A stretch of DNA of 59,197 nt from a virus (Duplodnaviria > Caudoviricetes): positions 1 to 59,197 of the IMG/VR virus record IMGVR_UViG_3300027985_000657; one strand, written 5' to 3'. Each line of letters opens with the position of its first letter. Positions within the stretch are counted from its first letter, which is position 1. This document shows positions 3,158 to 59,024 of this stretch, piece by piece. Made by a program: the position numbers and the translations under genes. The notes beneath the pieces were generated by a model. That model was not told where the DNA came from. It did not search any database and saw only the letters and a list, made by a program, of their open reading frames with translations.

Positions 3158-3236
3158 AAAATACAATCGGAGGTTTTTGGGGAGAGGTGATGGTCCCCTT
3201 AGCATTTGGAATAGACATATTCTACTTTTTGTTATC

Positions 3237-4283: not shown

Positions 4284-4311
4284 CTATAAAGAGGTATGTA
4301 AAATTTGCGCA
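4284..4311 (-). promoter_or_regulatory. Phage promoter-like motif copy
   Basis: TGCGCAAATTTTACATACCTCTTTATAG. Confidence 0.7.
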
Positions 4312-16668: not shown

Positions 16669-16700
16669 AATTTTTCCTCGATTTTCATAATTTTTTAAAT

Positions 16701-16745
16701 GGAAAAGATAAAGGAGTATGATTCACTCATACCCCTTTGTCATCC
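16701..16745 (-). terminator. Intrinsic terminator
   Basis: GACAAAGGGGTATGAG...TCATACTCCTTTATC hairpin followed by T-rich sequence. Confidence 0.6.
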
Positions 16746-17172: not shown

Positions 17173-17946
17173 CTAGTAGCTGTATACTTGTTTTGGTCTT
17201 GTGTTATATCTAATTGCACCACATGGTTCATTATCCGGTGTTAAAACAGTATCAATACTAATATCAATGATGCCTTGTTTACCGTCTTGTATTGACCAAC
17301 CCATGGTTTCACCAAGAACAGTTTCTTCTAACCCCAGAATATCAAACCAATCATTCAAAGTAGTTACACCAGACAAATCACCCATTGCTTGAGCATTCAA
17401 TTCGTTCGCTGCCTTTGATATGCGATTCCAATTAGTTTTGAAATATCTTCCAGACAATTCTTCATAAAATAAACTATCGCCGTCTCCAATAAGGGTAACA
17501 TTATTTATTCCATCTTTATATGTCTTTCTGACTTTTTCTTCTGAAATACTTTCCTCAATCTTCTCAAATTTCTTATCGCCGATTAAGGTTTTTGTTGTTT
17601 CTTTATACTCTTGAAGAGCAGTTTCTGACAATGTATATGCAGCTGCCAACATAATATTCCTTTTATTTGCTATGCGATTTCCAGCAATTATACAAGGGAT
17701 TGACATGCCGGTACTTACAACAACAGGTAAATAATCTTTCCAGGATAACTTAAATATTTCTTCAATAGTAAGTTTATCCTTTTTTAATTGTTGTTTTCTT
17801 TGTTCAACCTTCTTTGTTACTTTTGCAGTTGCTTTTATTCCCCATACAACTGAAAATAACATACCAGAGATACCCATTGTCATAAGTATCTCGGGTTCAT
17901 GTTGCGCTAAAAATGGTTTTATTGTTTTTAATATGTTACTCTTCAT
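17173..17946 (-). CDS. Membrane-associated paralog 2 (DUF6353-like)
   Basis: HEPEIL...KATAK...YLPV...LAAAYTLSE..L.EY...FYEELSGRYF...LN.W...LGL...MGW. Confidence 0.75.
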   Translation of the reverse strand: MKSNILKTIKPFLAQHEPEILMTMGISGMLFSVVWGIKATAKVTKKVEQRKQQLKKDKLTIEEIFKLSWKDYLPVVVSTGMSIPCIIAGNRIANKRNIMLAAAYTLSETALQEYKETTKTLIGDKKFEKIEESISEEKVRKTYKDGINNVTLIGDGDSLFYEELSGRYFKTNWNRISKAANELNAQAMGDLSGVTTLNDWFDILGLEETVLGETMGWSIQDGKQGIIDISIDTVLTPDNEPCGAIRYNTRPKQVYSY

Positions 17947-18889
17947 CCTCGTTGACCTCTCCATCATTGTCATTTTTGATTTTTATTAGTTTACCATCAG
18001 GACCTTTAGTATATCCGAACATTTCAAATGTGGCATACTCATGATTTGGATTATCCAGGAATGGGTCAAAATCTAAATCAAGACGTTCTTCATAGTCTTC
18101 GACACCAAGCATAATTGGATCTTCCAACCAAGAAATGACTTTATATGGTATTTGAGGTTCGACATCATCAATTGTAATCTCATCTACTAATTGCATGTGA
18201 ATCCAGATTATATCTTTTGTTTCAGATAAATAATCCATTGTCCATCCCCATGAAGAAAGGTATTCTTTCGTAATTGAAGTATCAATAATATTAGCTTTTG
18301 CTAATTCTACAAATTGTAGCAACGTTACTCCTTCAAAAACTTCATCTGTTGGATATCCATTCAAAGTTCCATTCATCATTTCATTGATTGTAGCATATGC
18401 ATACATAACATCTTCGGGTAGGGCTTGAAAATATCCAATTAGTTCATCATAGTAAAGTTCTCTACGATCCCCTTCATCTCTAGTTATGTGCTGTTTTACT
18501 GCTTTTTGTTCCTTTTGTGATAAACTTTTCAGAATATCATTGTGTGCATCAACACCAAGTACAGATTTTACTTGATGTTTGTATTTTTTCCACCCTTGGT
18601 CGGCAATTACAGCCATTGACATAATAGAAGCCTGCGCTTTATTACTCATAATTGTTGAGCCAACTATTGATGAAATTGTTGCTATTCCAGCTATTCCAGT
18701 TGGAATATAAATCTTGTACAAAGCCATTATCTTTTCTTTTAAAGGTAGTGATTCAAAATTATGAATTTTCTTTCGTACAATTGATTCTTTCATTGCTGCT
18801 TTTCTTGCTAATATTGCCGTCCCTACAGTTCCTATTGCTCCAACCACGGAAAAGCCAACTGCAAGTACTTGTTTTGTTTTTAGATTCAC
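17936..18889 (-). CDS. Membrane-associated paralog 3 (DUF6353-like)
   Basis: GTG start with AAGGAGAACTTAG RBS; two hydrophobic segments, YIPT, YYDELIGYF, WGW. Confidence 0.7.
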   Translation of the reverse strand: MNLKTKQVLAVGFSVVGAIGTVGTAILARKAAMKESIVRKKIHNFESLPLKEKIMALYKIYIPTGIAGIATISSIVGSTIMSNKAQASIMSMAVIADQGWKKYKHQVKSVLGVDAHNDILKSLSQKEQKAVKQHITRDEGDRRELYYDELIGYFQALPEDVMYAYATINEMMNGTLNGYPTDEVFEGVTLLQFVELAKANIIDTSITKEYLSSWGWTMDYLSETKDIIWIHMQLVDEITIDDVEPQIPYKVISWLEDPIMLGVEDYEERLDLDFDPFLDNPNHEYATFEMFGYTKGPDGKLIKIKNDNDGEVNEDEE

Positions 18890-18964
18890 TTTCTAAGTTC
18901 TCCTTCTCTTCTAAAATATAAATGAAGAGCATATGAAATGCTCTTAACATTTAGTGAAATTACA

Positions 18965-25322: not shown

Positions 25323-25350
25323 CTATAAAGTGATATGTAAATTATGCGAA
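25323..25350 (-). promoter_or_regulatory. Phage promoter-like motif copy
   Basis: TTCGCATAATTTACATATCACTTTATAG (identical to 27308-27335). Confidence 0.8.
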
Positions 25351-27205: not shown

Positions 27206-27233
27206 CTATAAAGTGATATGTATTTTTTGCGTA
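27206..27233 (-). promoter_or_regulatory. Phage promoter-like motif copy
   Basis: TACGCAAAAAATACATATCACTTTATAG. Confidence 0.75.
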
Positions 27234-27307: not shown

Positions 27308-27335
27308 CTATAAAGTGATATGTAAATTATGCGAA
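27308..27335 (-). promoter_or_regulatory. Phage promoter-like motif copy
   Basis: TTCGCATAATTTACATATCACTTTATAG. Confidence 0.8.
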
Positions 27336-51890: not shown

Positions 51891-52316
51891 TTACCCGATT
51901 TTGATGTAGTCTTTTAAACAATAACCAACCAAATCATGAGATCCATTATTAAATGATACCTCATAAAATGACTCTGTTGAATTGTCTAGGTTAATTACAA
52001 CTTCTGTTCCGGCAGGAATTTGAGCAAGTTCTCTTGTTCTGATGTTTGCACCTTCACGAAGACGTAATGCATTGCAATTTGCAATTACACCTTTGGTTGT
52101 TCCGAGTTTTTTCTTTCGAGATGGTTTTTCTGGAGCAACAACATGCGGAGGTGTTTCTTCTACAGGAGTTTCCACTTCTGGAGTTTCTTCTACCGGAGTT
52201 TCAACTACTTCTGGAGTTTCTTCTACAGGAGTTTCAACAACTTCTGGAGTTTCTTCTACCGGAGTTTCAACTACTGGTGCATCTTCTTTAGAAGCACTTG
52301 TGTTTTGTTTAGCCAT
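51891..52316 (-). CDS. Acidic repeat protein with C-terminal SH3b-like domain
   Basis: PVEETPEVVET repeats, then LRLREGA...IPAGTEV...FYEV...GYC...YI. Confidence 0.75.
   Translation of the reverse strand: MAKQNTSASKEDAPVVETPVEETPEVVETPVEETPEVVETPVEETPEVETPVEETPPHVVAPEKPSRKKKLGTTKGVIANCNALRLREGANIRTRELAQIPAGTEVVINLDNSTESFYEVSFNNGSHDLVGYCLKDYIKIG
52150..52277 (-). repeat. Coding ~33-bp tandem repeats (VETPVEETPEV)
   Basis: About 4 copies of GAAACTCC(G/T)GTAGAAGAAAC-type units. Confidence 0.85.
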
Positions 52317-52337
52317 TTTAAATTCTCCTTCTTTAGT

Positions 52338-52760
52338 TTATTTTTTCCACGGACAATGATCATTATGTGTTCTTGTAACTATTCGTCTACTGTCAACATA
52401 ACTTTTAGATCCGTAATGGATAGCATTATGAGTATCTAATGAAACACATATAAGATACTCGGGATTTAATAAATCATTATCAGAATTTAATATGTCTTCT
52501 GGTGATATTGGATTCATATGATGCACATGAATTGTTCCAAAAATATCCTCACCATCTAAACCCATGTCACACCCATTATCTCTGAGTATAACTAAGTCTC
52601 TGACACGTTTCCATTCTTGTGATTTGTATAGTTGTTGATTTAAATATCTGTCAAAACCAAATGTGTCGGCTCCAACTTTTCCAGATAAGGATAAATAATC
52701 AAATCGTTCTTCATACGTTTCTAACTGACACAGTTCGGTATATGATCTAATATTCTTCAT
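52338..52760 (-). CDS. HNH endonuclease (packaging-associated)
   Basis: W..VRD.V..RD..C...HVHHMNP....L.....H..IH; next to the TerS-like gene. Confidence 0.85.
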   Translation of the reverse strand: MKNIRSYTELCQLETYEERFDYLSLSGKVGADTFGFDRYLNQQLYKSQEWKRVRDLVILRDNGCDMGLDGEDIFGTIHVHHMNPISPEDILNSDNDLLNPEYLICVSLDTHNAIHYGSKSYVDSRRIVTRTHNDHCPWKK

Positions 52761-53106
52761 TGTCATCATTCCCCTCACTACCAGCATATATACGCATTGC
52801 TTTAATTGCCTCTCCATAAAGTTCTTCAATTCTCTTAGTAGAACGAATTGACTCTGTCTTGGCAATTAATAATTCTTTTTCTAGCTCCTTAATCTCACTA
52901 TCTTGTTTCTTTTTACTAGAACCGAGCATTAAATAGTGAGTGATTACTTGAGAAGAGGCGGTACCGTCCAACAATTGCTTTCTAGCTAAATCAACTGCTA
53001 GAGAAATCATCTGTTGCTCGTCAGCCTCTGGTGTTAACGCTGGTCGGATTGTCTTAACAGGCTTACTATTAGCAGACGTCCGAGCTTGTCCAGTACTTCG
53101 AGGCAT
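52747..53106 (-). CDS. Putative terminase small subunit-like protein
   Basis: First gene after the GC-rich cos-like site; PALTPE..E.Q.I.LA..LA..QL..GTASSQVI pattern; function inferred from position. Confidence 0.5.
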   Translation of the reverse strand: MPRSTGQARTSANSKPVKTIRPALTPEADEQQMISLAVDLARKQLLDGTASSQVITHYLMLGSSKKKQDSEIKELEKELLIAKTESIRSTKRIEELYGEAIKAMRIYAGSEGNDDNEEY

Positions 53107-53133
53107 GATACCCCTCCTTTCGGTGTAGTTTGT

Positions 53134-53260
53134 TTAAGTATCTAAGCAGATATATAGTATATCCGAACACTTGTATTGTGGTTTTTAGAAGGAAAGGAGA
53201 ACTTAGAAAGAAGAATATCCCTTGAATGTCAGATTCCTATATACCTGACTAGATACTTAA
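53134..53260 (-). ncRNA. Long hairpin whose loop is antisense to the phage's extended RBS
   Basis: Perfect 11-bp TTAAGTATCTA/TAGATACTTAA stem plus further helices; minus-strand loop reads CTTTCTAAGTTCTCCTTTCCTTCTAAAA. Confidence 0.55.
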
Positions 53261-53283
53261 GGTTAAAAACATGTCTCCAAAAA

Positions 53284-53360
53284 CCCCCCCCGGGGAAATT
53301 TTGAAGGGCGGGGCGATGCCGGAGGGGGGTGTAATTTCCGAAGACCCCCCGTCGGTGCCC
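53284..53360. other. GC-rich island, probable cos/packaging site
   Basis: Extreme GC island with C/G runs in an AT-rich genome, upstream of the TerS-like and HNH genes; minus strand reads CGCCCCGCCCT at 53315-53305. Confidence 0.6.
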
Positions 53361-53477
53361 ACAAAGTGGTGAAAGTACTTGAATAATTGTTATTAATGGC
53401 AATTTTTAAGTTCAGTCAAGAACACCTAACATTATTCTATTCAATTTTGATGTAAAAACATACACCTTATTTTACAA

Positions 53478-53762
53478 TTAATTTTTATTTTTAGTTTCTT
53501 TAATAACTTTTTTAAATTCTATGATTTCACCTTGTTTATTTATGGCGCCCGTCTTAATTAGTTGGTCTATGCCATGGTTAACAGACTCATAGATTTCTTC
53601 ATCAGTCATTGAATCACTAAGAAATGTTATACTTGCTAATCTACCACATGTATTATAGCCAGCATTGGTATCAAATAATAGCCATTGTTCCCAGTGTGTG
53701 AAAGGATTATATGGATTGTCTGCTGTTGTTACACGTAGTTCTTTATTGTTATATGCGGACAT
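53478..53762 (-). CDS. Small conserved protein following the RNA polymerase-like gene
   Basis: TT.DNPYNPF...W..FD...GY.T...LA; strong RBS, starts 2 nt after the upstream stop. Confidence 0.75.
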   Translation of the reverse strand: MSAYNNKELRVTTADNPYNPFTHWEQWLLFDTNAGYNTCGRLASITFLSDSMTDEEIYESVNHGIDQLIKTGAINKQGEIIEFKKVIKETKNKN

Positions 53763-53764
53763 AA

Positions 53765-56740
53765 TTACTCTCCTTTCAATGTGTTAGTAACTGTTGTTAC
53801 AGACACACCAATAGCTCTAGCTATCTCTGATGTAGTATAGCCGGATCTAGCCATGTTTTCTATTCTTCTTATTTTGGCAGGACTTAAAACAACACTAGTT
53901 CTAGGCATAGCAAACTTTCTTAGAATCTCTATGTTAGCATTAGCCATTATTTGTTCTAACTTATGGGTACTTATAGCACCAGCTTGTATTGCATCCCATT
54001 CTCTTTGTGTTATTTCTATTTCATGTCTAGCGGCACCTACCTTAGCCCTAGCCTTACTTAATTCTTGTTGTCTAAGCTTTCTTTCCTCTTCTGCAGTCAT
54101 TCTAGGATTGTCTTGTTTTTTAATTCTTATGTTAGATGCAGCAATTGTTTGGGCCTGTCTTTCTCTAGGAGCATTGAGTAGAGCTTGATTAATTTTGTAA
54201 TCTAAAGAAATGACCTCCTCATTGTATGCATTTCTAGCCGATGCAGAATAAGGGGTATTAATAATTGTAAGCGTTTCTTTTCTTGCTTCGTTGGCTAATG
54301 TTTTTAACGCATTAGCATATGTGGCATAGGCTTCCTCCTGTGGTGTACCAGATGATAGTGTTCTAGCATCATTTGTTTCAGCCATTTTAGTGGAGTATGT
54401 TGTTGCTTTAGTTGTTTTAATATTTTCATTAGTTACTTTTACATAATCACCGGTCTCATCTTTATAGTATAGATTACCATCTTTTACAATAACAGAAACT
54501 TTTTTATTGTCACCAGAAGATGTCTTATATGTAGTGGTCATGTATTCTCTGTTTGTATACGTATACAGTTTTTCACCAGTTTCTGGATCAAAGTATCTAG
54601 TTTTCTTATCTTTTTCACCATAATATTTACCAGTTTGTTCATCATAGTAAATCTTATTTTCTGGATCAATCAATGTAATTTGATTTCCTGTATCTTTTGC
54701 AAAGTAAGCTCCAAGTTTTCGCTCACCAACAACTTGTGTAGATTTTGATTTTGAAATTAATGTAGCTGCACCCATGTGCGATCTTCCAGTTTCTGGATCA
54801 ATCTGTGTTTGGTACTTTTTATGAAGTGCTTTTACACCATTGTCAACTTCAGACTGTTTATAATCCAATTTATGTTTGTTTGCATCGATGATAACCATTG
54901 AATGTTTAACAGCTCTTGCTAATTCTTCATTTGTTGCACCTTTCAATGTCATGTCTGTAATAAGGTTAGAAATAGTACCCATTTCATTTTGGGTTCTTGT
55001 TTCTGGGAGAATTGTAAATTCTTTTCCTCCTCTATAATACCTTTCTTCGCCATTAATAGTTTTTATTTCGTCTGGACCATACGAAAACTTTGTATCAAAG
55101 CCTTCCAAAGCCTTTAAAGGTGGTGATGAAGAAATCTTAATCTTGTCGGTAATAGGTATAACCATTACTGTGTCACCATCAAAATCTGCACCGGATAGTC
55201 TTGCTGCAACTTTTGCATTTATTCCTATTGCATCTGTTGGATTTTTTGTCATGATAGAAATCGCTTCTTTATTCCTATTATTTACATTTAAAACTGGAAT
55301 TTCAAAAGTTCCACCATGTGGATATCTAACCAATGCTATTTGAGATCCATCATCCATATGTGGTGCAAATGCTTCATTATCTTTTAATGATGGAACAGCT
55401 AAAATTACTTTGTATTTTGCTCCCGGTAATCCTGCAGCTTTTAAATTTACAGCTGAAGCATCACAATCATCAGCAAATGACAATAATAATGATTTTTTAA
55501 CTGTTGGATTAGTTAGAGAATTTATTTCGTCAAATTCATCAACTTTTTCTTGCATAGAAATTTCCAATTGTTTATTAATTAATTTCTGAGGCTGTTTAGA
55601 TAAAAATTGTGCGGATATTTCTTTAGACCAATCTCCCCAATCACCTTCATCTGAACGTTTATTTATTACAGATAGATGCTCATTTCCATCAGAATCATAC
55701 CAAACTGATTGTCCGCCTGTTTCTTTTATTGTTGAACCAAATGGATTATCTGGATCGTTTTTGATTGGTTTCATAGCATCTAATTTTGATTCGGTTTTGT
55801 TTTTATTTGTATTGAAAACAACATCTATTCCATCTGGCATATTATCAGAATATACTGCCATTCCTTTTAAATAGTGTGTTCCATCAACTAGAATACGAAC
55901 TTGAGAATAATTAGATGTTCCTAGTGAAATATCATCAACACCTCTTCTAAGTTCAATAATTCCATCTTTTTCACCGCCACCTTCATTGCCATATCTAACT
56001 TCAATTCTATCAGAACTCAAACTTTCTGGATATTGAAATGACGGTTTAAATGTTTTTCCATCATCATAAGATGTTAAGTCTTCTACAGAATGAATTTGAT
56101 CATAATTATAAATTGCTTTATGTGGTGTTCCAGGCGAACAAAGAACTTTTAATGTAGTTAACATTCCTTTATTAGTGGCTTGAGGAACTCTGTTACCATG
56201 AACAACATAACCTTCCATTTTTAAGATTTCAATTGCTTGATCCATCTTTTCTTTGGAAACTTTTAATTGTCTAGGTACGCCAGCACCAATATCAATCATA
56301 CCTTTTTCATCAACTAATTGTCTAAGATTGTCTGCCAAATCAGTTGCTAGATTCATTCTTGCTTTTGCATCTTTATTTAATAATGATCTTACACTTGATT
56401 CACCTTTCAAACCAAGCATTTCTGCAATTTTTACTCTACTGTATCCTTCTTCACTTAACGTGTTAGCTTTAGAATATAAGTCGTTTTTTCTTTCTCTTTT
56501 TGCTAGTGATACTAATGCTCTTAAACGAGTACTTGAAATATCACCCATGGCTTTTGCTATTTCTGCTTCTGTTAGACCTTGCTTTTTTAGTTCGTCAACT
56601 CTACTTAAAAAGTCTCCACTATGCTGATATGGTGATTCGCCACTTCCCCATGGATATCTACCAGAATGTCTAGGAGTACCATAGTGAAGTAGATATTCAT
56701 CATCAGTCATTGAATTGTCTAGTAATTCTTTATCACTCAT
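53765..56740 (-). CDS. Putative single-chain two-barrel (DFDGD) RNA polymerase with fused HTH domains
   Basis: LSGADFDGD (55172-55192 for GADFDGD), LVRYPH, SQVR...YLKGM, GTISN, HSMVIIDANK; HTH-like segments at both termini. Confidence 0.8.
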   Translation of the reverse strand: MSDKELLDNSMTDDEYLLHYGTPRHSGRYPWGSGESPYQHSGDFLSRVDELKKQGLTEAEIAKAMGDISSTRLRALVSLAKRERKNDLYSKANTLSEEGYSRVKIAEMLGLKGESSVRSLLNKDAKARMNLATDLADNLRQLVDEKGMIDIGAGVPRQLKVSKEKMDQAIEILKMEGYVVHGNRVPQATNKGMLTTLKVLCSPGTPHKAIYNYDQIHSVEDLTSYDDGKTFKPSFQYPESLSSDRIEVRYGNEGGGEKDGIIELRRGVDDISLGTSNYSQVRILVDGTHYLKGMAVYSDNMPDGIDVVFNTNKNKTESKLDAMKPIKNDPDNPFGSTIKETGGQSVWYDSDGNEHLSVINKRSDEGDWGDWSKEISAQFLSKQPQKLINKQLEISMQEKVDEFDEINSLTNPTVKKSLLLSFADDCDASAVNLKAAGLPGAKYKVILAVPSLKDNEAFAPHMDDGSQIALVRYPHGGTFEIPVLNVNNRNKEAISIMTKNPTDAIGINAKVAARLSGADFDGDTVMVIPITDKIKISSSPPLKALEGFDTKFSYGPDEIKTINGEERYYRGGKEFTILPETRTQNEMGTISNLITDMTLKGATNEELARAVKHSMVIIDANKHKLDYKQSEVDNGVKALHKKYQTQIDPETGRSHMGAATLISKSKSTQVVGERKLGAYFAKDTGNQITLIDPENKIYYDEQTGKYYGEKDKKTRYFDPETGEKLYTYTNREYMTTTYKTSSGDNKKVSVIVKDGNLYYKDETGDYVKVTNENIKTTKATTYSTKMAETNDARTLSSGTPQEEAYATYANALKTLANEARKETLTIINTPYSASARNAYNEEVISLDYKINQALLNAPRERQAQTIAASNIRIKKQDNPRMTAEEERKLRQQELSKARAKVGAARHEIEITQREWDAIQAGAISTHKLEQIMANANIEILRKFAMPRTSVVLSPAKIRRIENMARSGYTTSEIARAIGVSVTTVTNTLKGE

Positions 56741-57378: not shown

Positions 57379-57701
57379 TTTCCTAAGTTCTCCTTTTTCT
57401 TGAAATTATTAACATGATTATGCAATCTGTCAAAAACCTCATTTTCATTTTCAGGATTTATAAAACTTGAGAAACTCATATCATTATGCTTATTTACATA
57501 ATATTCTTGATTGGGTTGTTTGTTAGCTTTTTTATTTTTTTTAACTTCAAGTGTTCCCCATGTTAATGGACATAATACAACTAAATCTGGACTACCTTGA
57601 ATTTCAGTAGGATCTAGTTTATGAACTTCACATTGAGGAAACTCTTTTTTCAATCGATCTTTTACAATTGATTGAAACCCATTTTTACCAGTCTCTCTCA
57701 T
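57375..57701 (-). CDS. VRR-NUC family nuclease / resolvase
   Basis: E..FQ...QGSPDL...LEVK...QPNQ; start reassigned to MRETGK. Confidence 0.8.
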   Translation of the reverse strand: MRETGKNGFQSIVKDRLKKEFPQCEVHKLDPTEIQGSPDLVVLCPLTWGTLEVKKNKKANKQPNQEYYVNKHNDMSFSSFINPENENEVFDRLHNHVNNFKKKENLGK

Positions 57702-57812: not shown

Positions 57813-59024
57813 TTAATAATCATTTTCTAAGAACTTATATTGTTTAATATATTCTGGAATTAAACTAACGATTGTTCCTTCTTCATCAACCTTAAGTTTA
57901 ATAAACCATGCTCCAGATTCATTTGCAATTCTCTTTCTCTTCATCCAAGAAGATTGTTGTGTCATAGATGGCGCTTCAAAATAATGAATATTTCTATAAA
58001 GAAAATACATTGCTTTGTGATGATGTCCTACAAATAAAATGTTAGGCTTATCACCACCAGAAATAGAGTCCATATATTTTTGACCAGAATATGATACGGC
58101 ATATGCAGAACCATCAAGAGGATGGAATAAATCCATTCTACAATTTGGAGTTAACATAATTTTTGCATGGCCAATTCCTAAATAATTTATGTCTTTTCTT
58201 TCTTTTGCAATTGCAGCTCCAATATTAAAGCCACCATTCTTAATATGTGTTTCATCATGATTGCCAATAATTAGATGTGTAGTAATTCCAGGATAACGTG
58301 GCCAATTCGCAACTACATAATCTTTTTGTTCGTCTGCACCAATTGCAATTAGCTCATAAATTTGTTCTGGTCTTGATTTATAATACCCATCAACTATATC
58401 ACCAACATGATAAACATTTGTGATTCCTCTTCTGTTTGCTTCTGCATAAATAAAATCTACAAAAGATTTTTGTTGAATCTTTGTACACCAATGTGAATCA
58501 CTTATTACTAAAAATTCAATTTCTGTTACTTTACCGATAGAATGAACATATGTTTGTGGAACTACAGCTAGTGTTTTTTCCAAACTATATTGTTCTGTGC
58601 TCTTATTGTAAGATATGATATAGTTGTCTACTTTCAATGCATGAATTAATCCCATTGCAGTTATTTCATCAACTTTCAAATATTTTACAATTTCATCTAA
58701 CGTCTTTGGTTTAGCTAAATATTTCCTTAACTTAATTTTTTGATCAGATAATGTGATCTGTACTTCTTCTTGAACCTTTTTATTATTAAGTACATCGTTA
58801 ACTCTACCAAGATTTGTAGTTTGTGCTGCTGAACCTGTTCTTAATAATCTTGCCTTACCTGTTTCATATTGATTTTTCCACTGACGCTTTGTTAATGTAA
58901 CACCAAAATGTTCATTTAGAGTTTTTGAGATTTCATCCCAGTTTCTAAACGGTTGACCATCTGGTAATGGTGCGTCAATAATATCAAATACTTTCTGTAA
59001 ATCATCAGCTGTTTTACTATACAT
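57813..59024 (-). CDS. HTH-fused calcineurin-like metallophosphoesterase
   Basis: ISDSH, HVGDIVDG, IGNHD, FHP, GHHH; N-terminal HTH-like segments; start MYSKTA (AGGAGG RBS). Confidence 0.85.
   Translation of the reverse strand: MYSKTADDLQKVFDIIDAPLPDGQPFRNWDEISKTLNEHFGVTLTKRQWKNQYETGKARLLRTGSAAQTTNLGRVNDVLNNKKVQEEVQITLSDQKIKLRKYLAKPKTLDEIVKYLKVDEITAMGLIHALKVDNYIISYNKSTEQYSLEKTLAVVPQTYVHSIGKVTEIEFLVISDSHWCTKIQQKSFVDFIYAEANRRGITNVYHVGDIVDGYYKSRPEQIYELIAIGADEQKDYVVANWPRYPGITTHLIIGNHDETHIKNGGFNIGAAIAKERKDINYLGIGHAKIMLTPNCRMDLFHPLDGSAYAVSYSGQKYMDSISGGDKPNILFVGHHHKAMYFLYRNIHYFEAPSMTQQSSWMKRKRIANESGAWFIKLKVDEEGTIVSLIPEYIKQYKFLENDY

What the first reader, a model, noticed from the sequence alone, without database searches (positions are those of the whole stretch)
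53134..53260. Hairpin RNA at the start of the late operon displays a loop antisense to the phage's own extended ribosome-binding sites
Seen: a ~125-nt imperfect hairpin (perfect 11-bp base; two A.C mismatches on the + strand become G.U pairs on the minus strand). Its loop on the + strand reads TTTTAGAAGGAAAGGAGAACTTAGAAAG (53183-53210). This matches 26 of 28 nt of the mRNA leader of the 17936-18889 gene (TTTTAGAAGAGAAGGAGAACTTAGAAAG) but in the opposite orientation, with no correctly spaced start codon on +. The minus-strand transcript would therefore expose CUUUCUAAGUUCUCCUUU, complementary to the AAGGAGAAYTWAG leader found on about a dozen phage genes. Inference: a trans-acting multi-target antisense RNA (translational switch), or a guide/decoy for ribosome or protein recruitment.
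Basis: partly seen in the sequence, partly recalled or inferred. Interest (0 to 1): 0.78.

Follow-up and report, generated by a model that had tools for sequence, protein, structure and literature searches.

The report
Phage late-leader hairpin mirroring ribosome sites
At the start of this phage's late genes lies a conserved folded RNA whose tip is the mirror image of the ribosome-landing sequence used by a dozen of the phage's other genes, so it may be a viral RNA switch that turns those genes off, although no RNA has yet been observed.

Summary
Window 53134-53260 is a 127-nt imperfect hairpin. It folds well only as minus (coding) strand RNA (z -5.5, against -1.2 for plus). It lies 47-173 nt inside the left cohesive end of a 1706-like siphophage and 27 nt upstream of the first late gene. 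Nine close relatives keep the stem through compensatory and G.U changes and keep a 38-nt apex unchanged. Unrelated-sequence hairpins occupy the same place in 16 of 29 related loci and 4 of 7 named relatives. In all seven whole genomes tested, the hairpin interior is the reverse complement of that phage's own extended ribosome-binding motif. That motif occurs 3-8 times forward, mostly on non-structural genes, and exactly once reversed, in the hairpin. The same layout occurs in Cluster K mycobacteriophages. There the single reversed start-associated sequence, whose role is unexplained in print, forms the loop of a hairpin in the gap where late transcription starts. Best reading (about 0.5): a late-leader antisense RNA that pairs with early-gene translation starts. 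No expression data exist. Rivals are a cis-acting leader structure, a plus-strand ribosome site and a DNA-level site. The papers I could search do not describe it. Earlier reports of this scan found the same thing on other DNA.

The parts
53134..53260 (-). Whole hairpin, read as RNA of the coding strand
   Evidence: The fold is -36.9 kcal/mol, z -5.5. In 9 sequences, 95.1% of cells are paired and 5 pairs show compensatory changes.
53237..53260 (-). 5' arm of the outer stem (as RNA)
   Evidence: It is unique in the window apart from its partner arm.
53134..53157 (-). 3' arm of the outer stem (as RNA)
53226..53234 (-). Inner variable helix, 5' side, pairing with 53161-53170
   Evidence: This is helix 2: 9 pairs, none invariant, 3 with changes on both sides.
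53161..53170 (-). Inner variable helix, 3' side
53183..53221 (-). Apical motif, almost invariant in 9 relatives. It is the reverse complement of the phage's extended ribosome-binding motif (anti-TIR).
   Evidence: The exact 24-nt core was found in 7 virus contigs.
53192..53199 (-). CUCCUUUC core, the complement of the Shine-Dalgarno GAAAGGAG
   Evidence: CTCCTT occurs only 3 times on the coding strand of the whole window, against 50 AAGGAG.
53107..53133 (-). Linker from the hairpin base to gene 1, holding the gene's own Shine-Dalgarno (53111-53119)
   Evidence: The spacing from hairpin base to gene is 21-39 nt in most lineages.
52747..53106 (-). Gene 1 of the late/packaging operon (119 aa, phrog_4259, function unknown), followed by the HNH endonuclease gene
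   Evidence: The AF2 model is two helices with no PDB fold match.
53276..53362 (.). G+C-rich cohesive-end (cos) region. The mature left end starts at 53306, reading the minus strand.
   Evidence: Contigs L003, L005, L006 and L017 begin at the homologous base, as do the deposited genomes of 1706 and other relatives. Published 3' overhangs are. A 12-nt inverted repeat flanks the cut (I5).
18889..18916 (-). Leader of the DUF6353 gene (17936-18889). It is the best complementary site, 26 of 28.
   Evidence: The predicted duplex is -39.4 kcal/mol.
57383..57395 (-). One of 12 further translation-start sites with the same extended motif. The others are at 2453, 2943, 6702, 9621, 13862, 24016, 25033, 26139, 32402, 43588 and 52318.
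   Evidence: Ten of the 13 lie in the non-structural part of the genome.

Best explanation
The hairpin is a structured part of the 5' leader RNA of the late (packaging and virion) operon, made from the minus strand. A long basal stem holds up an apex that carries the reverse complement of the phage's own extended ribosome-binding motif. The motif consists of the Shine-Dalgarno sequence and the spacer, and in some relatives the start codon as well. I infer that when late transcription begins, this leader pairs with the translation-initiation regions of the dozen or so genes that carry the motif. It may first be cut out of the message, since the 24-35-bp stem has the size of an RNase III substrate. 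The genes carrying the motif are mostly non-structural. Pairing would block ribosome binding and so help switch the infection from early to late. Shown here: the fold, its strand preference, its conservation and covariation, its position, and the lineage-specific complementarity. Inferred: that it is transcribed, that it is processed, that it acts in trans, and the direction of the effect. The reverse direction is not excluded, in which early messages would act on the late leader.
For: (1) The structure is real and favours the coding strand. In the window z is -5.5 against -1.2. In 15 hairpins from different lineages z is -5.0 to -13.9 on the coding strand, and more negative than on the reverse strand in 14 of 15. 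In the 9-sequence alignment 95.1% of cells pair, 5 of 43 pairs have compensatory changes, and 1 of 500 shuffles reaches the observed covariation score. There are 38 G.U cells against 8 A.C cells. (2) The position is conserved: 21-39 nt before the first gene of the operon in most lineages. In Mudcat and Camille the hairpin stays with that gene although it lies 0.5 and 2.1 kb from the genome end. (3) CTCCTTTC is present in 17 of 21 hairpins, or 9 of the 13 outside the window's own clade. It is the only coding-strand copy in the whole Mudcat genome and the only one in the whole Camille genome, against 11 reverse copies each. In most lineages the predicted fold leaves it unpaired, in loops. (4) The match is lineage-specific. 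Exact antisense matches of 12 nt or more between a hairpin interior and its own genome total 33 in seven genomes, against 5 same-sense matches. Unrelated pairs give 0-3. All 33 lie 37-93% of the genome length downstream, and nearly all lie directly before start codons. Each lineage's motif occurs 3-8 times forward and exactly once reversed. (5) Phages 1706, P078 and G003 carry two or three different anti-start modules in one hairpin, each matching a different class of gene starts. One reverse-strand gene would not need that. (6) There is an independent parallel in Cluster K mycobacteriophages. They have 14-18 forward start-associated sequences and one reversed copy in 5 of 5 genomes. In Adephagia the reversed copy is the 10-nt loop of a hairpin of about 20 bp (z -6.2), with 4 of 29 pairs compensatory in 6 phages. 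The hairpin lies in the gap where RNA-seq places the start of late transcription (PMC11373665, passages).
Against: There is no expression evidence of any kind. No RNA holder was listed, no promoter was recognised upstream, and it is unknown whether the late start site lies before the hairpin. In the window's clade the predicted fold pairs six bases of the anti-SD with an invariant AAGGGA (helix 3), so its accessibility is uncertain and cannot be tested by covariation. Three of the 13 motif-bearing genes lie in the structural arm. The best-matching gene differs between close relatives. The hairpin was not seen in 13 of 29 related loci or in 3 of 7 named relatives: Bing, Secretariat and ReqiPepy6. 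In Amohnition the loop differs at two positions while its start-associated sequences do not. The own-versus-cross matching would also arise if the reversed motif were, or once was, a real translation start. A coding-strand C-to-T mutation bias could produce some of the G.U excess. One RNA silencing a dozen messages needs high abundance.
Confidence: 0.5

Rival explanations
1. It is a purely cis-acting leader structure. It could be an RNase III processing site or a 5' stabiliser of the late message, or a cis brake on translation of gene 1. In this reading the pyrimidine-rich apex pairs only with the nearby Shine-Dalgarno of gene 1 or has no pairing role.
For: The spacing of 21-39 nt to the first gene's start is constant. 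The stem is long and near-perfect, the length class that RNase III cuts. The CUCCUUUC core can pair with gene 1's GAAAGGAGG.
Against: This does not explain why the apex follows each phage's own spacer and start-codon context well beyond the Shine-Dalgarno core. It does not explain why 1706 carries three different modules. In Mudcat and Camille gene 1's own site (ACGGAGGTG) pairs poorly with the loop. Gene 1 is not among the 8 best predicted partners in the window, and it ranks sixth in G003.
Confidence: 0.2
2. The functional strand is the + strand. The apex would then be a real ribosome-binding site for a tiny divergent ORF, or a ribosome landing pad on a + strand transcript that runs towards the genome end.
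For: The reverse strand carries a full consensus ribosome site. An ATG lies 6-10 nt after it in 6 of the 14 lineages (the three window-clade rows counted as one), more than the roughly 1 in 12 expected by chance. Mudcat annotators called a 65-codon reverse gene that starts there.
Against: There is no start codon in the window's clade, where the sequence is invariant in 9 of 9, nor in L017, L023, L026, L027 or L033. ORF lengths range from 2 to 65 codons with no conserved peptide. The Mudcat reverse ORF is found only in near-identical Arthrobacter phages (31 records), and several annotators omit it. Folding z-scores favour the other strand in 14 of 15 hairpins. Several tandem start-like modules in different frames make no sense for a single gene.
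Confidence: 0.1
3. It is a DNA-level element. It could be an inverted copy of a protein-binding site shared with the gene starts (stoperator-like). It could be a cruciform or single-stranded-loop promoter for the phage's own two-barrel RNA polymerase. It could be part of the terminase recognition region next to cos.
For: It lies 47 nt from the cohesive end in the window, between the RNA polymerase gene and the packaging genes. Inverted repeats flanking a conserved centre resemble protein-binding architectures.
Against: The stem is kept by G.U-type changes that destroy the symmetry of DNA half-sites. In L037 the arm pair GGTGCATGG/CTGTGTATC pairs 9 of 9 as RNA. The hairpin is separated from cos in Mudcat and Camille. 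A different motif, conserved across the whole supercluster, sits right at the end and is the better terminase-site candidate. Cluster K phages have the same layout without this polymerase. The repeated motif always keeps ribosome-site spacing to start codons.
Confidence: 0.12

Closest known systems
Start-associated sequences (SAS) of Cluster K mycobacteriophages (Pope et al. 2011, PMC3203893, passages read)
   Same: Both have an asymmetric extended motif around the Shine-Dalgarno core, a few bases before the start codons of about 13-19 genes. [quoted passage not shown] I found that this lone copy is also a hairpin loop at the head of the late operon.
   Different: The motif sequence differs (GGGATAGGAGCCC there, AAGGAGAAYTWAG here), as do the phage lineage and host phylum. 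There the hairpin is short (about 20 bp, 10-nt loop) and lies about 1 kb before the right end. The papers I read give no role for the SAS and do not mention the hairpin.
c4 antisense RNA of phages P1 and P7 (Rfam RF01695) and the CI RNA of P4 (mechanisms recalled from my own knowledge)
   Same: Both are encoded in the leader of an operon on the same strand as the targets. Both have a stable stem with exposed loops complementary to ribosome-binding sites further along. The known RNAs act after being processed out of the leader.
   Different: There is no Rfam match here. The known RNAs serve immunity in temperate phages and have one target site in their own transcript. Here a dozen dispersed targets are implied, at the head of a late operon, in a lineage that includes virulent phages.
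C/U-rich-loop regulatory RNAs of Gram-positive bacteria (RNAIII hairpins, RsaE, RoxS; recalled)
   Same: Pyrimidine-rich loops that pair with Shine-Dalgarno sequences of several messages.
   Different: Those are stand-alone chromosomal genes with short seeds. Here the complementarity extends to 13-28 nt and follows the phage's own spacer.
T4 RegA and RegB (review PMC3014915 seen in a search listing only; mechanism recalled)
   Same: The proposed outcome is the same: shut-off of early-gene translation by acting on their ribosome-binding regions.
   Different: Those are proteins, a repressor and a GGAG-cutting nuclease. Here an RNA would do it by pairing.

Membership tests
c4 antisense RNA (Rfam RF01695) | Match to the family's covariance model | tested here: not met
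   searched all 4227 Rfam models at E up to 10 over 52000-54500. There was no c4 match. The only hit on the hairpin is a chance plant microRNA model at 19.7 bits, against a threshold of 140.
c4 antisense RNA (Rfam RF01695) | Lies in the operon leader, on the same strand as its targets, with loops complementary to a ribosome-binding site | tested here: met
   Position and strand. Complementarity.
c4 antisense RNA (Rfam RF01695) | Processed out of the leader and active as a repressor | not testable with these tools
   No RNA data are available.
SAS system of Cluster K mycobacteriophages | Asymmetric motif containing the SD core, a few bases before many start codons, in one orientation | tested here: met
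   13 minus-strand copies, each 2-5 nt before ATG or GTG.
SAS system of Cluster K mycobacteriophages | Restricted to the non-structural half of the genome | tested here: inconclusive
   10 of 13 sites in the window lie there. In seven genomes, 33 of 33 exact matches of 12 nt or more lie there.
SAS system of Cluster K mycobacteriophages | Single opposite-orientation copy not at a gene start | tested here: met
   1 of 14 in the window. There is 1 reversed copy each in G001 and G002, and 1 in each of 5 Cluster K genomes.
SAS system of Cluster K mycobacteriophages | Consensus GGGATAGGAGCCC | tested here: not met
   The window's motif is different. This is an analogue, not a member.
Intrinsic terminator | G+C-rich stem followed directly by a U run | tested here: not met
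   One search reports no terminator-like site at the hairpin. The 3' arm is followed by AACAAACUACACC.
Terminase recognition site (cosB-like) | Fixed position next to the cohesive end across relatives | tested here: not met
   It lies next to the end in the window, 1706 and P078. In Mudcat and Camille it is 0.5 and 2.1 kb away and stays with the gene instead.
Protein-coding start on the + strand | Start codon at working distance from the ribosome site and a conserved ORF | tested here: not met
   There is none in the window's clade. Elsewhere ORFs are 2-65 codons and not conserved.

The most novel reading that the evidence does not exclude
Many tailed phages, in at least two bacterial phyla, mark a set of mostly early genes with a private extended ribosome-binding tag. 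They place one hairpin RNA at the head of the late operon whose loop is the exact mirror of that tag. Late transcription would then itself deliver a single RNA that silences the tagged early genes. This would also explain the start-associated sequences of Cluster K mycobacteriophages, whose role has been open since 2011.
Probability: 0.4. Interest if true: 0.85.

Novelty: new variant of a known kind. Interest (0 to 1): 0.8.

Why it matters
If the reading holds, it gives a simple RNA-only way for a virus to time its gene expression. It supplies a candidate partner for start-associated sequences, which the papers I read still call ill-defined in 2024 and 2025. It defines an unannotated RNA family at a predictable place, the head of the packaging operon, which would improve phage genome annotation. 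Private ribosome-binding tags with a matching antisense loop would also be a compact, orthogonal translation switch for engineered phages and synthetic circuits. The hypothesis can be tested directly in harmless laboratory systems that already exist: Lactococcus lactis with 1706 or P078, Arthrobacter with Mudcat, and M. smegmatis with Adephagia.

Tried and rejected
Rfam at a permissive threshold gave only chance hits.

DNA similarity to deposited phages found no close relative.

A search for sequencing runs listed no RNA holder.

The consensus promoter scan found nothing usable upstream of the hairpin.

I considered a link to the neighbouring YonO-like RNA polymerase. SPbeta has a hairpin with a pyrimidine-rich loop about 38 nt before yonK, the first gene of its YonO-dependent late operon. 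The fold is not significant (z -1.6), I could not map the published start site onto it, and Cluster K phages show the same layout without such a polymerase. I dropped the link and keep it only as a lead.

I tried to name gene 1. Pfam, NCBIfam, PDB sequences, the ESM Atlas, an AF2 model (pLDDT 77.7, two helices) and Foldseek against the PDB all gave nothing.

The idea that the DUF6353 gene is the one conserved target was rejected.

The comparison of own and foreign loops by duplex energy favours the own phage, but it cannot separate an antisense RNA from a reverse-strand start site.

Searches for prior description returned nothing that links a reversed SAS or such a hairpin to an antisense RNA. 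One search used anti-Shine-Dalgarno, phage, hairpin, leader and late genes. One search used start-associated sequences and mycobacteriophage, and found 7 papers, of which I read passages in 3. One search used start-associated, phage and antisense, and found 1 paper in which the word is unrelated. One search also found nothing. The ZoeJ paper (Dedrick 2019) is not held.

Full report
THE OBJECT. Window 53134-53260 holds a 24-nt inverted repeat, 21 of 24 complementary, with 79 nt between the arms. Its outer 11 bp are perfect. As RNA the minus strand folds to -36.9 kcal/mol (z -5.47; 0 of 200 shuffles as good). The plus strand folds to -28.5 (z -1.23; 24 of 200). The extended ribosome-binding motif AAGGAGAAYTWAG occurs 14 times with up to one mismatch, against 0.6 expected. 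Thirteen copies are on the minus strand, directly before start codons. The only + strand copy is the loop.

CONTEXT. The window is a complete-looking (98%) virus record in which every gene is on the minus strand. Upstream of the hairpin lie a 991-aa YonO-like two-barrel RNA polymerase with a C-terminal HTH (phrog_4291) and a 94-aa gene. Downstream lie a 119-aa gene (phrog_4259), an HNH endonuclease, a connector protein and the large terminase. In deposited relatives the polymerase gene is the last large gene at the right end. The 119-aa gene is first at the left end in Streptomyces phages. The phage belongs to the 1706/Mudcat supercluster described in bioRxiv 10.1101/842583 (passages). Four metagenomic contigs begin at the same homologous base, and so does the deposited genome of phage 1706. 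Published 3' overhangs of these lactococcal phages resemble the bases just before that point (PMC4110766, passages). The mature left end is therefore window 53306 read on the minus strand. The hairpin occupies nt 47-173 of the genome, 27 nt before gene 1.

CONSERVATION AND STRAND. The search found 32 related loci, and a pattern scan added one more. Eight close relatives align with the window (A1). RNAalifold predicts 43 pairs, 5 of them with compensatory changes. 95.1% of cells pair, and 1 of 500 shuffles reaches the observed covariation score. There are 38 G.U cells against 8 A.C cells, so the stem is better as coding-strand RNA (95.1% paired) than on the other strand (about 87%). The 38-nt apex is almost invariant, while the inner helix and its flanks vary.

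Of the 32 loci, 29 have at least 100 nt upstream. Sixteen of these show a long hairpin carrying a CUCCU or CCUCC tract. In nine of the sixteen the stem sequence is unrelated to the window's. Thirteen show none. Among seven named relatives, 1706, P078, Mudcat and Camille have the hairpin, and Bing, Secretariat and ReqiPepy6 do not. For 15 hairpins the coding-strand z-scores are -5.0 to -13.9, and they are more negative than the reverse-strand z-scores in 14 of 15. Raw energies favour the coding strand in 15 of 19. In Mudcat and Camille the hairpin lies far from the genome end but directly before the homologue of gene 1. It therefore belongs to the operon start and not to cos.

THE APEX. CTCCTTTC is present in 17 of 21 hairpins, or 9 of the 13 outside the window's clade. 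It is the sole coding-strand copy in each of the whole Mudcat and Camille genomes, against 11 reverse copies each. In the window's coding strand CTCCTT occurs 3 times against 50 AAGGAG. The match goes beyond the Shine-Dalgarno core. Each hairpin interior is the reverse complement of its own phage's extended start motif:
- Window and G001: AAAGGAGAACTTAGAAAG.
- Mudcat and Camille: CTCTTGAAAGGAG.
- 1706: two or three different modules, one of them a 26-nt match with 1 mismatch.
- P078: GTCTTAAGGAGGACTATAA.
- G003: GGAG-ATACGTA-ATG.

Exact antisense matches of 12 nt or more to the phage's own genome total 33 in seven genomes, against 5 same-sense matches. Unrelated pairs give 0-3. All 33 lie 37-93% of the genome length downstream, almost always directly before start codons. 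Each lineage's motif occurs 3-8 times forward and once reversed. In Mudcat the matching genes are small genes after the tail module.

A + STRAND GENE? An ATG lies 6-10 nt after the reversed ribosome site in 6 of the 14 lineages, counting its three window-clade rows as one. There is none in the window's clade or in five others. ORFs range from 2 to 65 codons. The one annotated case, Mudcat gp2, is confined to near-identical phages and is not always called. Tandem modules in different frames also argue against a gene. The excess of ATG fits an antisense that extends across the start codon equally well.

AN INDEPENDENT PARALLEL. Pope et al. [quoted passage not shown] These are 13-bp asymmetric motifs 3-7 bp before start codons, confined to the non-structural half and of unknown role. 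The authors also noted a single opposite-orientation copy in subcluster K1 phages (PMC3203893, passages). I located that copy. Adephagia and Anaya each have 16 forward copies and 1 reversed. Amohnition has 15 and 1, SgtBeansprout 14 and 1, and Niklas 18 and 1. In Adephagia the reversed copy is the 10-nt loop of a hairpin of about 20 bp (coding strand -33.7, z -6.2; reverse strand z -3.6). The hairpin lies in the 432-nt gap between genes 92 and 93. RNA-seq places the start of late transcription in that gap, running through cos (PMC11373665, passages). The region is held by 140 Cluster K records. In a six-phage alignment 4 of 29 predicted pairs show compensatory changes. One counter-example exists: Amohnition's loop differs at two positions while its forward copies do not. 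The 2024 and 2025 papers still call the role of these sequences unknown and do not mention the hairpin.

INTERPRETATION. The best-supported reading is a structured late-leader RNA that displays an antisense copy of the phage's private translation-start tag. It is most likely to pair with, and silence, the tagged and mostly early genes once late transcription begins. It works like the processed leader antisense RNAs c4 of P1 and CI of P4 (recalled). Its proposed effect resembles that of T4 RegA and RegB (recalled). It is not a member of any Rfam family. I give this reading about 0.5. The rivals are a cis-only leader structure (0.2), a DNA-level site (0.12) and a + strand ribosome site (0.1). 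The main weakness is the complete lack of expression data.

EARLIER SCAN REPORTS. Earlier reports of this scan reached the same reading on other phage DNA. One of them also noted the Cluster K parallel. I found that parallel before reading those notes. They are not independent evidence.

Noticed in passing
window 53276-53362: This is the cohesive-end site. A 12-nt G+C-rich inverted repeat flanks the inferred cut at 53306/53307. The first ~27 nt of the left end (C-Y-T-N-AAAA-W-T-Y-C-Y-CCGGGGG...) are conserved from lactococcal to Arthrobacter, Streptomyces, Gordonia and Rhodococcus phages. That makes this motif a better terminase-site candidate than the hairpin.
   Followed up: partly
window 3165-3200 (minus strand): This is a second candidate of the same kind: a small hairpin followed by AAAAACCUCC. 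It is the only reversed copy of GGAGGTTTTT, which occurs forward at the starts of two cassette genes (27197, 25313). The match is only 10 nt.
   Followed up: partly
window 25323-25338, 27206-27221, 27308-27323 (minus strand): There are three exact copies of a 16-nt promoter-like motif before small early genes, and a fourth copy with 2 mismatches at 4284-4299. None lies near the hairpin.
   Followed up: partly
window 53765-56740 (minus strand): A 991-aa YonO-like single-chain two-barrel RNA polymerase with a C-terminal HTH. It is the last large gene before the right genome end in about 250 deposited phages.
   Followed up: partly
window 52747-53106 (minus strand): Gene 1 (phrog_4259) is conserved next to the HNH endonuclease across the supercluster. 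It has no Pfam, NCBIfam or PDB relative. The model has a disordered basic N-terminus and two helices, one of them 56 residues long. No small terminase subunit is recognisable in the window, so this protein is a candidate for that role (my guess).
   Followed up: partly
L068 19150-19420 (SPbeta, minus strand): About 38 nt before yonK, the first gene of the YonO-dependent late operon, a 15-bp stem encloses an unpaired 30-nt pyrimidine-rich loop with CUCCUU tracts. The fold z-score is only -1.6. A published start site and an unannotated RNA lie somewhere upstream (PMC5467207).
   Followed up: partly
L090 848-960 (Adephagia 58447-58560): The gap that holds the Cluster K hairpin begins with a terminator-like hairpin followed by four tandem copies of a 10-nt G+C-rich unit. 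These might mark the late promoter or an activator site.
   Followed up: no
window 16690-16740 (minus strand): One of only three CTCCTT copies on the coding strand forms the descending arm of an intrinsic-terminator-like hairpin between two genes.
   Followed up: no
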